A DNA stretch of 42,713 nucleotides from a virus. Lineage: Duplodnaviria > Heunggongvirae > Uroviricota > Caudoviricetes. Positions 22,087 to 32,813 of this stretch are shown piece by piece; position 1 is the stretch's first letter; each line of letters starts with the position of its first letter. The notes under the pieces are model-generated. The model made no database searches, was not told where the DNA came from, and saw only the letters and a list, made by a program, of their open reading frames with translations. The translations under genes and the position numbers were made by a program. Location of the stretch: the IMG/VR virus record IMGVR_UViG_2636415959_000003, positions 1 through 42,713 of that record; one strand, 5' to 3'.

Positions 22087-22143
22087 GAATATTTCCTCTT
22101 AATGACATTATCGAAGCCCCTCAGTGAAGAGCTTCTGTAATGG

Positions 22144-22401
22144 CTACTTCGTTTTTGCTTCCGCTCTTTTACGGCGGCGCTCTTCTTTCTTCTCGGCGTT
22201 TGCCATGTCCATGAATGCCTGCATGATCGAGTTCCTCATCATGTAACTGACAAAGTGATGATTGACGCAGCCGTTGAGACGGAGTTGCTCGCCAAACTCA
22301 TCCACCGAGGCCAATGCTTCCATCATGCCCTTCTCGCCTTTCATGAACTCTGAGAAGTCGCGCCCCGCTCTGGAGGCGCATTCAATGACACGATCACTCA
22401 T
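22144..22401 (-). CDS. Hypothetical small protein
   Basis: 85 aa; ATGA-coupled to the KilA-N gene. Confidence 0.45.
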   Translation of the reverse strand: MSDRVIECASRAGRDFSEFMKGEKGMMEALASVDEFGEQLRLNGCVNHHFVSYMMRNSIMQAFMDMANAEKKEERRRKRAEAKTK

Positions 22402-24593: not shown

Positions 24594-25094
24594 TCATTGA
24601 AAAGCAAGCGCGTTATGAGGATTTTTTGCAATTTTCCTCACATTTTCGCGATTGTTAAACGCATTTTGCAGCGGTTGGTACAAACAGAACAGTGAGGCGT
24701 TGATGATTTGCTTCACCTCTCTACGGATTGTCGAGATGCTTGGGTGTTTATACTGATTTCCGCCACGCGTCTTCATCAGGCGAGGCTTACTTACTGCATG
24801 CTGCCATGATGCAATTCGGATCTCGCTGGAGTTACAAACGTAGTAGGCGAAGACAACCCGCCAGGCATTTTCATCCACATTCTTCAGATAGTGACGAATG
24901 ACAGCATCAATGAGCATCCCGTCATCATCACTACATACCGGTCGTGATGCTTGCTGGGGCTCGACGGTAGCCATGAATCTGGCAATCATGTTGATCATCG
25001 CTTTATCAATCTTGCCGGTCTGGCACCATGCGCCCCACAACTGGAGCCACTGGTCTACCCATTGATGCTGGTCGTTGGTTAATTCCAGTTTCAT
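24594..25094 (-). CDS. Q: Late-gene antiterminator Q (Q82-type family, tentative)
   Basis: 166 aa immediately upstream of the late promoter/terminator region and lysis cassette. Confidence 0.65.
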   Translation of the reverse strand: MKLELTNDQHQWVDQWLQLWGAWCQTGKIDKAMINMIARFMATVEPQQASRPVCSDDDGMLIDAVIRHYLKNVDENAWRVVFAYYVCNSSEIRIASWQHAVSKPRLMKTRGGNQYKHPSISTIRREVKQIINASLFCLYQPLQNAFNNRENVRKIAKNPHNALAFQ

Positions 25095-25206
25095 TATGCG
25101 GCTTCCTTCTGTGGCTGGTTGGTTTTGGTCTGGCTGTGCTTTGCTATTGGCGGCAGGTTGGCGCGCTTAACGCTTTCTGCCTGGTAGCGGATAATCTGGT
25201 CACGTG

Positions 25207-25590
25207 TCATTCGTCCACCCTCTCGTTCTGCCAGAGAGGAAGTGGTGACTTATCCCCAGCGCGGCGTATGCGGGATTTGGCGTTCTTCTCAATCTGAATG
25301 AGTTTCTCGATATTCTGACGGCGCTGCTTTTCTTCCCGGCGGAGATATTTCACGTTCTCCATATAGCGAGACTCCTGGTCGCAGAGCGTCATCAGGAAGT
25401 CAAAAGGCTCGATCAACGTTTCGCACTTCCTGCAGCGTAAGGTCCGGTCCTTTTCGTTAACCCAAACGGTGGAGTGCAGGCACATTACCTTCTGTCCTTC
25501 GCGCTGAATAACGAGCCCATCCTGTAGGTCGTTATTCTTTGACGGGAAAGCGACAACCTTGCCCAGTTCAATTTCTGTTTCTGTGCTCAT
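25207..25590 (-). CDS. Hypothetical nin-region protein (Cys-containing)
   Basis: 127 aa; ATGA-coupled to NinG. Confidence 0.45.
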   Translation of the reverse strand: MSTETEIELGKVVAFPSKNNDLQDGLVIQREGQKVMCLHSTVWVNEKDRTLRCRKCETLIEPFDFLMTLCDQESRYMENVKYLRREEKQRRQNIEKLIQIEKNAKSRIRRAGDKSPLPLWQNERVDE

Positions 25591-26228
25591 GCGGCCTCCC
25601 GTTGTTTCAATGCTTTGAGTTTGGCGCGGTACTCATCGCGGATCCGGATGAAATCTTCCCGGCGGTAGTTGGTCATTTCGTGGGGGCCATTGAGCCAGTC
25701 GACGTATTCCTGTCCGTAACGAGCAACCAGACCGGCTTCGTATTGCTGCGCTACGGTCGCCTCCTTGGCGGTGTACTTTCCGGCACCGGCATTACACGAT
25801 TTGCACTGCTTATGGGCGTTGCGCTCTTCAAAGCGAAGTTCTGGGTTGGCGCCGACCGTTTTGAAGTGGCCGCAGTCCCACTGGCCGCCATGTAAATCAG
25901 GTGGATTGGTCTCTCCGCAGCTGATGCATGGCAAATCAGCGTCACGCGCTCGGATGTAGGCGTTGAACGCCTGCTGAGCCTGCGCCTTGTAGTAACCGGC
26001 AGGCCGAAGCTCTGCCAGCCGTTCCTTGCGGCGTTTGCGACCGGCCTTCTCGGCGTCCTTCTGCTCCTTGATGCGCTTAGCAGCGGCTTTCACCTTCTCC
26101 TTTTCGCGTTCTTCCATTGCGAGGATTGTGCCGTGCTCAGGGCTGCACCAGCGGATCCGGATGTCGTGGAATTTAGGCACGAAGTATTCACCGCATACTT
26201 TGCACTTACGGCGGGATGGTTTACGCAT
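25587..26228 (-). CDS. ninG: NinG / Rap recombination-associated protein
   Basis: 213 aa; Cys-rich pattern (CKVCGEYF…CISCGE…CGHF…CKSC) typical of NinG. Confidence 0.75.
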   Translation of the reverse strand: MRKPSRRKCKVCGEYFVPKFHDIRIRWCSPEHGTILAMEEREKEKVKAAAKRIKEQKDAEKAGRKRRKERLAELRPAGYYKAQAQQAFNAYIRARDADLPCISCGETNPPDLHGGQWDCGHFKTVGANPELRFEERNAHKQCKSCNAGAGKYTAKEATVAQQYEAGLVARYGQEYVDWLNGPHEMTNYRREDFIRIRDEYRAKLKALKQREAA

Positions 26229-26391
26229 GACCTCTCCTCGCCGCGAGACGCAGCCATTTCTGATCCACCAGGCGGGCGGTGTAGCCTTTCAAGGTCGGGA
26301 TGTCGGACGGCTTAACCGCGGGCTTACGCTTGCGGCGCGCAGGAACGCGGAAGATTTCGTTTGTGATGACGCGGGAAAGTGGAGTAGACAT
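26221..26391 (-). CDS. Small basic protein (56 aa), not in the supplied ORF track
   Basis: ATG at 26391 overlaps the NinB stop (TGATG); GGAGG RBS; stop overlaps the NinG start. Translation MSTPLSRVITNEIFRVPARRKRKPAVKPSD… read directly. Confidence 0.4.
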   Translation of the reverse strand: MSTPLSRVITNEIFRVPARRKRKPAVKPSDIPTLKGYTARLVDQKWLRLAARRGHA

Positions 26392-26846
26392 CAGGCCTCC
26401 TGCTTATCGCGTAGTTGCTGGTACTCGCAGCTCTGCGGGATGGTCAGGTGGCAGCCGATATTCATCGCCCAGGCTTCGACTTTGCACAGGAAAATGTACA
26501 TCTCGCCCGTTTCCAGCTCTGACGTATGACGTAGGGATTGGACGGTGGTGACCTCGCCAGACACGACGTCTACACGGTCCTTGCTTTCGTAGCCGAGATA
26601 GGTGTGCTTCATCGCGTCTTTGACCCACTCAGGCGTAGCGAAGGTCTTGCCGCGCGCGATCAGGTACTCGCTAATTTCCGTGTACCACATGTGGCTGAGC
26701 GCGTTCTGCGACAGGCTGCGCTTCTCGCGCCATGGCTTAACCTGAAGGCGGAAGCATTGCCCGTCATTCAGAAGTGGGTGAAGGTGCTGGGTGATAGCAT
26801 TAATATTGCCACGATGAAGCTTGATGCCGTCTTTTGGGAGAATCAT
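26391..26846 (-). CDS. ninB: NinB recombination protein
   Basis: Start MILPKDG at 26846 with GGAGGTG RBS; KRSLSQNALSHMW motif similar to lambda NinB (RSLDQN) as recalled. Confidence 0.7.
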   Translation of the reverse strand: MILPKDGIKLHRGNINAITQHLHPLLNDGQCFRLQVKPWREKRSLSQNALSHMWYTEISEYLIARGKTFATPEWVKDAMKHTYLGYESKDRVDVVSGEVTTVQSLRHTSELETGEMYIFLCKVEAWAMNIGCHLTIPQSCEYQQLRDKQEA

Positions 26847-27019: not shown

Positions 27020-27052
27020 AATCAACTAAAGAGAAAGGCCTCCGAAGAGGCC
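27020..27052 (-). terminator. Rho-independent terminator upstream of nin region (tR2-like position)
   Basis: GGCCTC-cgaa-GAGGCC hairpin followed by a U-rich tract on the minus strand. Confidence 0.45.
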
Positions 27053-27096
27053 CTGGGCGGGTCGATATGTGAATCCCCATATCGCTTGTATGGTAG

Positions 27097-31985: not shown

Positions 31986-32102
31986 GTTTTGCTCCGCTCA
32001 TGTGTAATCAACACCATGTTAATTCATGATGTGGATTAAATCAACATTATGGTGATGGAAAAAATCCACATGTTGTTTACCATGCATGGAGCGGAGGGTT
32101 TT
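31986..32102. promoter_or_regulatory. Right operator/promoter region (OR with PR and PRM)
   Basis: Minus-strand promoter TTGATT-17-TAACAT with the motif ATCCACATCATG between -35 and -10. Further copies of ATCCACATG/AAATCAACA motifs in the cI-cro spacer. Confidence 0.6.
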
Positions 32103-32813
32103 ATGAGTAGCATTTCTGAAAGAATTAAATTTTTACTGGCAAGGGAAGGCTTGAAGCAGCGGGATTTGGCTGAGGCTTTGTCGACTAGCCCACAGACCGT
32201 CAACAACTGGATAAAAAGAGACGCGTTAAGTCGTGAGGCGGCGCAACAAATATCTGAAAAATTCGGTTATTCTCTTGACTGGTTATTAAATGGAGAGGGT
32301 TCTCCAAAGAAGGATCTGGAGAGCAACATCCCGCCAGAGTCTGAGTGGGGAACTGTCGACGCTTGGGACAAAAATACCCCCCTACCTGACGATGAGGTGG
32401 AAGTACCGTTTCTGAAGGATATCGAGTTTGCGTGTGGTGATGGGCGTGTTCATAGCGAAGATCATAACGGCTTTAAACTGAGGTTCTCCAAGGCAACGCT
32501 CAGAAGGGTGGGTGCAAATAGTGATGGTTCTGGAGTGCTTTGCTTTCCCGCTTCTGGTGACAGCATGGAGCCCGTTATTCCTGACGGCGCAACGGTAGCA
32601 GTCGATACAGGCAACAAGCGGATTATTGACGGCGAACTCTATGCTATTAACCAGGGCGATTTAAAGCGCATAAAGCAGCTTTATCGAAAGCCTGGTGGGA
32701 AGCTATTAATACGAAGCATCAATCGCGATTATGACGATGAAGAGGCTGATGAGGCAGATGTCGAGATAATCGGTTTTGTGTTCTGGTACTCGGTATTGCG
32801 ATATCGCCGATAA
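32103..32813 (+). CDS. cI: CI-type repressor (HTH_XRE plus LexA-like S24 autopeptidase domain)
   Basis: N-terminal HTH (KQRDLAEALSTSPQTVNNW), C-terminal GDSMEP…K catalytic Ser/Lys pair; GGAGGG RBS. Confidence 0.9.
   Translation: MSSISERIKFLLAREGLKQRDLAEALSTSPQTVNNWIKRDALSREAAQQISEKFGYSLDWLLNGEGSPKKDLESNIPPESEWGTVDAWDKNTPLPDDEVEVPFLKDIEFACGDGRVHSEDHNGFKLRFSKATLRRVGANSDGSGVLCFPASGDSMEPVIPDGATVAVDTGNKRIIDGELYAINQGDLKRIKQLYRKPGGKLLIRSINRDYDDEEADEADVEIIGFVFWYSVLRYRR

What the first reader, a model, noticed from the sequence alone, without database searches (positions are those of the whole stretch)
26221..26391. Unannotated 56-aa basic ORF between ninB and ninG
It has a strong GGAGG RBS and start/stop overlaps with both neighbours, and it is below the 60-aa threshold of the ORF track.
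Basis: seen in the sequence. Interest (0 to 1): 0.2.

Follow-up and report, generated by a model that had tools for sequence, protein, structure and literature searches.

The report
Known lambdoid phage gene ninE
The 56-codon reading frame is real and conserved, but it is the long-known small phage gene ninE, whose biochemical role is still unknown, so the finding is ordinary.

Summary
The ORF exists as described, on the minus strand (26391 to 26221). It encodes a 56-aa protein with pI 11.9 and net charge about +10.6. An AGGAGG ribosome-binding site lies 4 nt upstream. The start overlaps the stop of the upstream Orf-family gene (ybcN type) by 1 nt, and the end overlaps the ninG/rap start by 8 nt.

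It is only "unannotated" with respect to a 60-aa ORF cut-off. It is a full-length member of the NinE family:
- NCBIfam NF007245: 113.7 bits against a cut-off of 88.
- Pfam PF05322: 28.6 bits against 25.
- phrog_288, the same PHROG as lambda NinE.

The exact protein is already in NCBI as "NinE family protein". Homologues are annotated in phi80, HK225, HK639 and phage 82 (orf56, "related to nin60 (ninE)").

Across 96 related loci the frame is kept: 0 of 85 alleles has a stop, pN/pS is 0.18, and third codon positions vary about 2.5 times more than first or second positions. The core stays constant while both neighbours are swapped.

The function is unknown in the searched literature, and the gene lies in the dispensable nin region. 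The best inference is a translationally coupled, nucleic-acid-binding accessory protein of the Orf–Rap/RusA recombination module. Verdict: already known, low interest.

The parts
26221..26391 (-). ninE coding sequence (56 codons plus TAA), DLP12/phage 82/phi80 type
   Evidence: ORF. NF007245 113.7 bits over 1-56/56. PF05322 28.6 bits against a cut-off of 25. phrog_288 at 1e-32. Purifying selection and frame conservation. Exact protein named NinE family protein in NCBI.
26396..26401 (-). Shine-Dalgarno AGGAGG for ninE, 4 nt before the ATG, inside the last codons of ybcN
   Evidence: Read from the sequence. The same AGCAGGAGGCCTGATG context occurs in 54 of 96 loci, and close variants in most others.
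26391..26393 (-). TGA stop of ybcN, sharing its A with the ninE ATG (TGATG, 1-nt overlap)
   Evidence: The 1-nt overlap is present in 75 of 96 loci.
26391..26846 (-). Upstream gene: YbcN-type member of the Orf/NinB recombination-mediator family (151 aa)
   Evidence: NF007281/PRK09741 264 bits over 1-151/151. phrog_72 NinB/Orf at 3e-50. Pfam NinB 24.0 bits against 23.8. YbcN biochemistry is described in PMC4118853.
26234..26239 (-). Shine-Dalgarno GAGGAG for ninG, encoded by the ninE codons Ala-Arg-Arg (GCG AGG AGA)
   Evidence: Read from the sequence. The last residues of NinE co-vary with the downstream gene.
25587..26228 (-). Downstream gene: ninG/rap junction-specific endonuclease (213 aa); its start overlaps ninE by 8 nt
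   Evidence: Pfam NinG 195.5 bits. phrog_171 at 1.5e-97. The 8-nt overlap occurs in 37 loci.
24594..25094 (-). Q antiterminator, the end of the same delayed-early gene chain (context)
   Evidence: Pfam Phage_antitermQ 76.5 bits. phrog_943.
27035..27054 (-). Terminator-like hairpin about 190 nt upstream of ybcN, in the position of lambda tR2 (context, a consensus match only)

Best explanation
This is ninE, a genuine protein-coding gene of the nin region of a lambdoid prophage.

Shown:
- It encodes a conserved 56-aa, very basic, cysteine-free protein of the NinE family.
- It sits in the rightward early operon, which runs on the minus strand here: cII-like, O-like, P-like, ..., ybcN(orf), ninE, ninG(rap), a 127-aa gene, a 38-aa ORF, Q, then lysis genes.

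Inferred from anatomy:
- It is translated as one link of a chain of interlinked genes. Its SD lies in the last codons of ybcN, and its ATG shares a base with the ybcN stop.
- Its own last codons carry the SD and ATG of ninG.
- So ribosomes are probably passed from orf to ninE to rap.

Inferred, low confidence (about 0.3):
- The product is a small protein that is mostly helical or folds only on binding. It has a basic RRKRKP linker and a 19-residue C-terminal helix.
- It probably binds nucleic acid, or a partner bound to it, as an accessory of the Orf plus Rap/RusA recombination module.
- It is dispensable for plaque formation, like the rest of the nin region.
For: Family membership:
- Searches give Pfam, PHROG and NCBIfam hits above their cut-offs.
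- Lambda NinE falls in the same PHROG.
- The exact sequence is named NinE family protein on 96 contigs.
- It is annotated ninE in phi80, HK225, HK639 and phage 82.

Coding and selection:
- There are 85 distinct alleles and none has a stop in the true frame. Four other frames have stops in 78-85 of 85 alleles, and the antisense frame of the 167-aa ORF in 25 of 85.
- pN/pS is 0.18, against 0.4-2.6 in the other frames.
- Entropy at codon position 3 is 0.70, against 0.29 and 0.28 at positions 1 and 2.

Coupling signals are conserved.

Synteny:
- An Orf-family gene lies directly upstream in 84 of 96 loci (66 YbcN type, 18 lambda NinB type).
- Directly downstream is NinG/Rap in 45 loci, YbcO (usually followed by RusA) in 31, and NinI (usually followed by NinG) in 13.
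- The central 50 residues stay constant while only the terminal 2-3 residues track the neighbour.

Physical character:
- pI 11.9 and charge +10.6.
- The AlphaFold model has mean pLDDT 72.7 and pTM 0.33, with helices at residues 4-13 and 34-52. The C-terminal helix has pLDDT 76-90.

Dispensability: the nin genes are scored non-essential in PMC10695390.
Against: Nothing argues against the gene call. The points below weigh against the functional inference.
- No experiment assigns NinE any activity.
- The lambda yeast two-hybrid map found only a single low-confidence U-NinE pair, and no NinE-NinB or NinE-NinG interaction (PMC3224144).
- The model is not a compact fold (pTM 0.33), and no structural or sequence relative exists in the PDB.
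- Synteny in mosaic lambdoid genomes can reflect shared history rather than shared function.
- The gene is often found broken or hybridised in prophages, so selection on it is not strict everywhere.
Confidence: 0.9

Rival explanations
1. NinE is a host-directed small protein, for example an inhibitor of a host defence or housekeeping factor. On this view it is not a recombination accessory, and its place between orf and rap is historical.
For: Small, highly charged early phage proteins in dispensable regions are often host-directed (general knowledge). The nin region is non-essential in the laboratory. No interaction with NinB or NinG was seen in the lambda two-hybrid map. The family is narrow: only 40 clusters at 50% identity among 1.84 billion representatives, all from enterobacterial lambdoid elements.
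Against: The position is fixed directly after an Orf-family gene in 84 of 96 loci, even though both neighbours change type. Sequence conservation is high, with pN/pS 0.18 and a near-invariant 50-residue core. That is unlike the rapid turnover typical of counter-defence genes. The PADLOC defence library was not searched, and no direct test was done.
Confidence: 0.2
2. The arginine-rich peptide binds RNA and acts in gene regulation of the early operon, in the manner of arginine-rich-motif peptides such as lambda N.
For: The composition fits: RRKRKP and a C-terminal WLRLAARR helix with net charge +10.6. The gene also lies between a terminator-like hairpin and Q.
Against: There is no sequence similarity to N or to any RNA-binding family. 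No Rfam element or conserved RNA structure was found in the window. Lambda nin deletions remove ninE without a known regulatory defect beyond loss of terminators (own knowledge).
Confidence: 0.08
3. The reading frame matters only as a translational-coupling spacer that carries ribosomes from ybcN to ninG, and the peptide itself has no function.
For: The overlaps at both ends, and the SD of ninG embedded in the last ninE codons.
Against: A spacer would not constrain amino acids. Here pN/pS is 0.18 and 50 central residues are nearly invariant across alleles with dS up to about 2. The same core is kept next to four different downstream genes and two upstream gene types. It is shared at 39% identity with lambda NinE, which sits between ninD and ninF.
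Confidence: 0.03
4. It is a chance ORF, or the conservation is due to an overlapping antisense gene or a DNA/RNA element.
For: A 167-aa ORF (26026..26529, + strand) covers the same bases, and GC-rich DNA gives many long ORFs.
Against: The antisense frame has pN/pS 1.00 and stops in 25 of 85 alleles, and the other frames have stops in 78-85 of 85. Variation is concentrated at third positions of the minus-strand frame. There are no Rfam or tRNA hits and no terminator-like site inside the ORF.
Confidence: 0.01

Closest known systems
NinE of phi80 and HK225, and phage 82 orf56 (the E. coli K-12 DLP12 prophage ninE type; NCBIfam NF007245 / PRK09689)
   Same: Same length (56 aa) and the same position directly after the YbcN-type orf gene with a 1-nt stop/start overlap. 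Identity is 93% to phi80 and HK225 and 70% to phage 82 orf56. The model match is full length.
   Different: Only the downstream partner differs: ninG here, the ppp/NinI phosphatase in phi80, and ybcO-rusA in phage 82. The last 2-3 residues change with that partner.
Bacteriophage lambda NinE (Nin60; Pfam PF05322, phrog_288)
   Same: Both are small basic proteins of the nin region, located between orf (ninB) and rap (ninG). They share the C-terminal core R-x-R-x-K-P ... S-D-(I/V)-x-T ... Y-T-A-x-L-x-D-x-(K/R)-W-L-R ... A-R-(R/K), and they fall in the same Pfam family and PHROG.
   Different: Identity is only 39%. The Pfam match covers profile positions 24-58, so the N-terminal 17 residues are unrelated. 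Lambda has ...ICENCKYL... with two Cys, whereas this protein has none. Lambda carries a 3-residue insertion in the basic stretch. Lambda ninE lies between ninD and ninF rather than touching orf and rap.
Arginine-rich-motif peptides (e.g. lambda N) and the basic extensions of ribosomal proteins
   Same: Composition only: a short, highly basic segment predicted to be helical or disordered, likely to fold on a nucleic acid.
   Different: There is no detectable homology. The only PDB hits are insignificant: eS17 at E of about 0.8 and uL4 at Foldseek E of about 8. This is a resemblance, not membership.

Membership tests
NinE family (Pfam PF05322) | Score at or above the Pfam gathering cut-off (25 bits) | tested here: met
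   28.6 bits, E 1.3e-6. Residues 18-53 match profile positions 24-58 of 58, so only the C-terminal core matches.
NinE family, DLP12/82 subfamily (NCBIfam NF007245, PRK09689) | Full-length match above the curated cut-off (88 bits) | tested here: met
   113.7 bits over 1-56 of 56.
NinE family (PHROG 288) | Same PHROG as the type member, lambda NinE | tested here: met
   The window protein scores 112.9 bits over 1-56/56. Lambda NinE scores 94.2 bits in the same PHROG.
NinE family | Conserved core residues shared with lambda NinE | tested here: met
   S29, T33, Y37, T38, L41, D43, W46, A51 and R52 are invariant in a 10-sequence alignment that includes lambda and a Cronobacter phage. P17, R20, K23, P24, S29, T33, Y37, T38, L41, W46 and R48 are at least 90% conserved in 49 sequences.
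NinE family | Size of about 55-60 aa and a location in the nin region between an orf/ninB gene and a junction resolvase (rap or rusA), upstream of Q | tested here: met
   56 aa, in the order ybcN-ninE-ninG-...-Q. The same arrangement is seen in 96 loci.
NinE family | A defined biochemical activity | not testable with these tools
   None is defined for the family. The literature searches found no functional study.
Arginine-rich-motif RNA-binding peptides (lambda N type) | Sequence homology to N, or a cognate RNA hairpin (boxB-like) target | tested here: not met
   No family or PDB sequence match. No Rfam element in the window. The resemblance is in composition only.

The most novel reading that the evidence does not exclude
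NinE is a dedicated nucleic-acid-binding adaptor of the lambdoid recombination module. It would act physically with the Orf-family mediator and/or the Rap/RusA resolvase. In some phages it would work as one polypeptide with the zinc-ribbon-like NinD, as the natural NinD-NinE fusion in Cronobacter phage ENT47670 hints. That would give a first function to a gene that has been orphan since the lambda sequence.
Probability: 0.25. Interest if true: 0.3.

Novelty: already known. Interest (0 to 1): 0.05.

Why it matters
It matters little. The result shows that a 60-aa ORF threshold hides real, conserved phage genes. It also shows that start/stop overlaps plus an SD site are good flags for them. NinE itself remains a decades-old orphan of the best-studied phage family, so an assigned function would be a modest but real addition to lambda biology. 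This window adds nothing beyond another ordinary copy.

Tried and rejected
Structure and homology
- PDB sequence searches gave nothing significant: no hits with the single protein, and only eS17 at E of about 0.8 with a 49-sequence profile.
- Foldseek of the AlphaFold model against the PDB gave nothing better than E of about 8. The model is not globular (pTM 0.33), so no fold inference was drawn. The AFDB and viral libraries were not searched because the model is too weak.
- The exhaustive search of 1.84 billion representatives was run to look for informative domain fusions.
  - The longer hits that were inspected are read-throughs or deletion hybrids with the neighbouring genes ybcN, ybcO and ninG.
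  - The hits over 1000 aa match only the lysine/arginine-rich stretch and were not inspected. None of them was used as functional evidence.

RNA elements
- The Rfam and tRNA scans of the window were empty.
- No terminator-like site lies inside the ORF.

Literature
- A search for NinE-related phrases was swamped by the word 'nine'.
- Targeted searches found no functional study: ninE+ninB+ninG+lambda, ninE+ybcN+DLP12, b0548, and ninD/ninF/ninH.

Analysis details
- The antisense 167-aa ORF was rejected as a gene.
- A first attempt to classify downstream neighbours by the nearest start codon failed. It was replaced by tblastn mapping.

Full report
**Observation**

The window holds an ORF at 26221..26391, on the minus strand. 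It encodes MSTPLSRVITNEIFRVPARRKRKPAVKPSDIPTLKGYTARLVDQKWLRLAARRGHA.

Reading the minus strand gives ...GATAAGC AGGAGG CC TGA TG TCT...:
- An AGGAGG Shine-Dalgarno sequence (26401..26396) sits 4 nt before the ATG (26391..26389).
- The A of that ATG is also the last base of the TGA stop of the upstream gene.
- At the other end the sequence is GCG AGG AGA GGT CAT GCG TAA. The ATG of the downstream gene (26228..26226) lies 8 nt inside the ORF.
- The two rare arginine codons AGG AGA form that gene's Shine-Dalgarno sequence.

The protein has 14 Lys+Arg, 3 Asp+Glu, no Cys, pI 11.9 and charge +10.6.

An ORF of 56 codons is not significant by itself in this GC-rich DNA. One search lists 53 ORFs of at least 30 aa in 4 kb, one of them a 167-aa antisense ORF over the same bases.

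**Identity**

The protein is a member of the NinE family:
- Pfam PF05322: 28.6 bits against a gathering score of 25, covering profile positions 24-58.
- NCBIfam NF007245 'NinE family protein': 113.7 bits against 88, full length 1-56/56.
- phrog_288: 112.9 bits, full length. Lambda NinE falls in the same PHROG.

The neighbours were also identified:
- The upstream gene (26391..26846) is the YbcN type of the Orf/NinB recombination-mediator family. It scores 264 bits on PRK09741 and matches phrog_72. Pfam NinB just passes at 24.0 against 23.8.
- The downstream gene is NinG/Rap, at 195.5 bits.

The exact 56-aa sequence is already in NCBI as 'NinE family protein [Escherichia coli]', on 96 contigs, in a 90%-identity cluster of 656 members. 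Close homologues are annotated NinE in phi80, HK225, HK639, several Klebsiella phages and many E. coli prophages. In the phage 82 record X92588 it is 'orf56; related to nin60 (ninE) of bacteriophage lambda'. The nearest phage, Enterobacter phage CobraSix (97.5% DNA identity), calls it hypothetical.

So 'unannotated' applies only to the 60-aa ORF track.

**Conservation**

I collected 96 loci with a homologue: IMG/VR viral contigs, species-representative genomes and GenBank phage records.
- Gene length: 92 genes are exactly 171 nt, three are 168 nt and one is 174 nt.
- Stops: among 85 distinct 171-nt alleles, none has a stop in the true frame. Four of the other frames have stops in 78-85 of 85 alleles, and the frame of the 167-aa antisense ORF in 25 of 85.
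- Selection: pN/pS is 0.18 in the true frame, 1.00 in that antisense frame and 0.4-2.6 in the rest.
- Codon position: entropy is 0.29, 0.28 and 0.70 at positions 1, 2 and 3.
- Divergence: against the window allele, median dS is 0.26 and median dN 0.027. Distant alleles such as phage 82 show dS of about 2.4 with dN 0.24.

**Anatomy across relatives**

- The 1-nt stop/start overlap with the upstream gene is present in 75 of 96 loci. The AGCAGGAGGCCTGATG context is identical in 54.
- The gene directly upstream is an Orf-family gene in 84 of 96 loci: 66 YbcN type and 18 lambda NinB type.
- The gene directly downstream is NinG/Rap in 45 loci, YbcO (usually followed by RusA) in 31, the NinI phosphatase (usually followed by NinG) in 13, and NinF in lambda.
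- The first two or three residues track the upstream gene: MST with YbcN, and VGS, MNN or MSS with lambda-type NinB.
- The last residues track the downstream gene, because they overlap its start: HA* with NinG, HG* with YbcO, KSA* with NinI.
- The roughly 50 central residues stay nearly invariant.

NinE is therefore an independent, selected unit at a recurrent mosaic joint, not an appendage of either neighbour.

**Context**

The window is a lambdoid prophage with its rightward early operon on the minus strand. In order it carries:
- a CI-like repressor (32049..32813, + strand);
- CII-like, O-like and P-like genes;
- several genes of unknown function;
- a terminator-like hairpin (27054..27035);
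- ybcN, ninE and ninG;
- a 127-aa gene and a 38-aa ORF;
- Q (24594..25094);
- terminator-like hairpins, an endolysin and an Rz-like spanin.

This is the classical nin region, long described as a chain of interlinked genes with overlapping stops and starts (own knowledge of the lambda literature).

**What it does**

No paper in the searchable library assigns NinE a function.
- It is listed as non-essential and was not testable in the lambda CRISPRi screen (PMC10695390).
- The lambda two-hybrid map reports a single low-confidence U-NinE pair, and no pair with NinB or NinG (PMC3224144).

An AlphaFold2 model was built from 49 sequences spanning the DLP12 and lambda types. It has mean pLDDT 72.7 and pTM 0.33. 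It shows a weak helix at residues 4-13, an extended basic linker (VPARRKRKPAVKP) and a more confident helix at 34-52 (pLDDT 76-90). Nothing in the PDB resembles it by sequence or fold.

The family is narrow: 40 clusters at 50% identity in 1.84 billion representatives, all from enterobacterial lambdoid elements. The longer database 'fusions' that were inspected are read-throughs or deletion hybrids with neighbouring genes.

From charge, predicted shape and fixed position, my best inference is a small nucleic-acid-binding, or partner-binding, accessory of the Orf plus Rap/RusA recombination module, made by translational coupling. I hold the functional part at about 0.3. The rivals are a host-directed small inhibitor (0.2) and an RNA-binding regulator (0.08). 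A pure coupling spacer and a chance ORF are effectively excluded by the selection on amino acids.

**Verdict**

The gene is ninE and is already known. Interest is low.

Noticed in passing
window 25094..25210, minus strand: A second sub-60-aa ORF lies in the same gene chain: 38 aa, MTRDQIIRYQAESVKRANLPPIAKHSQTKTNQPQKEAA, between the 127-aa gene and Q. It has an ATGA overlap upstream and a TAATG overlap with the Q start. It has no hit in Pfam, PHROGs or NCBIfam. Even so, it is present full length in 64 of the 96 ninE loci. None of 58 alleles has a stop, and third-position entropy is 0.39 against 0.12 and 0.09 in codons 9-38, with pN/pS 0.47. It always sits directly upstream of a Q gene, and those Q genes are of several types. 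PGAP calls it 'hypothetical protein'. It is not annotated in the phi80 record, where the gap is at L092 4170..4286. As a family-less conserved gene it is more interesting than ninE.
   Followed up: partly
L096 2384..2647 (Cronobacter phage ENT47670, HQ201308.1 at about 22125..22388): An unannotated 87-aa ORF joins a nearly complete NinD (PF17466, 97.7 bits, residues 1-59) to the NinE core (PF05322, 39.3 bits, residues 49-83) in one frame. In lambda, ninD and ninE are separate genes that overlap by 34 nt. This could be a natural fusion hinting that NinD and NinE work together, or a frameshift product.
   Followed up: partly
window 27035..27054, minus strand: A terminator-like hairpin, AGGGCCTCTTCGGAGGCCTT followed by TCTCTTTAGT, lies about 190 nt upstream of ybcN. 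This is the position of lambda tR2 and of the IR4 inverted repeat annotated in phi80. It is a consensus match only.
   Followed up: no
L084, L088, L094, L095 against L093 and the window (ninE alleles): Some alleles combine a DLP12-type or Klebsiella-type N-terminal half with a lambda-like C-terminal half (..KPSDIPT FHYTAHLADVRWLR..). This indicates recombination inside ninE at the conserved KPSDIPT segment.
   Followed up: partly
proteins P0236, P0247, P0251, P0259, P0268, P0239: Public databases hold many hybrid proteins. Examples are a NinE N-half joined to a YbcO C-half (P0236, on 26 contigs), a NinG N-part joined to a NinE C-half (P0251), and a YbcN-NinE read-through (P0268). The phage 933W 'NinE' diverges after residue 23. 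ninE is therefore a frequent deletion or recombination end point in prophages.
   Followed up: partly
window 25207..25590, minus strand: A 127-aa gene lies between ninG and the 38-aa ORF. It belongs to phrog_1621 (unknown function) and has no Pfam or NCBIfam hit. It recurs after ninG or rusA in several related loci.
   Followed up: no
window 26026..26529, plus strand: A 167-aa antisense ORF spans ninG, ninE and ybcN. Over the ninE part it is a shadow ORF, with pN/pS 1.00 and stops in 25 of 85 alleles.
   Followed up: yes
L091 3001..3171 (Enterobacter phage CobraSix, OK499971.1): In the closest sequenced phage (97.5% DNA identity), ninE, ybcN and several neighbours are annotated only as 'hypothetical protein'. 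These names could be updated.
   Followed up: no
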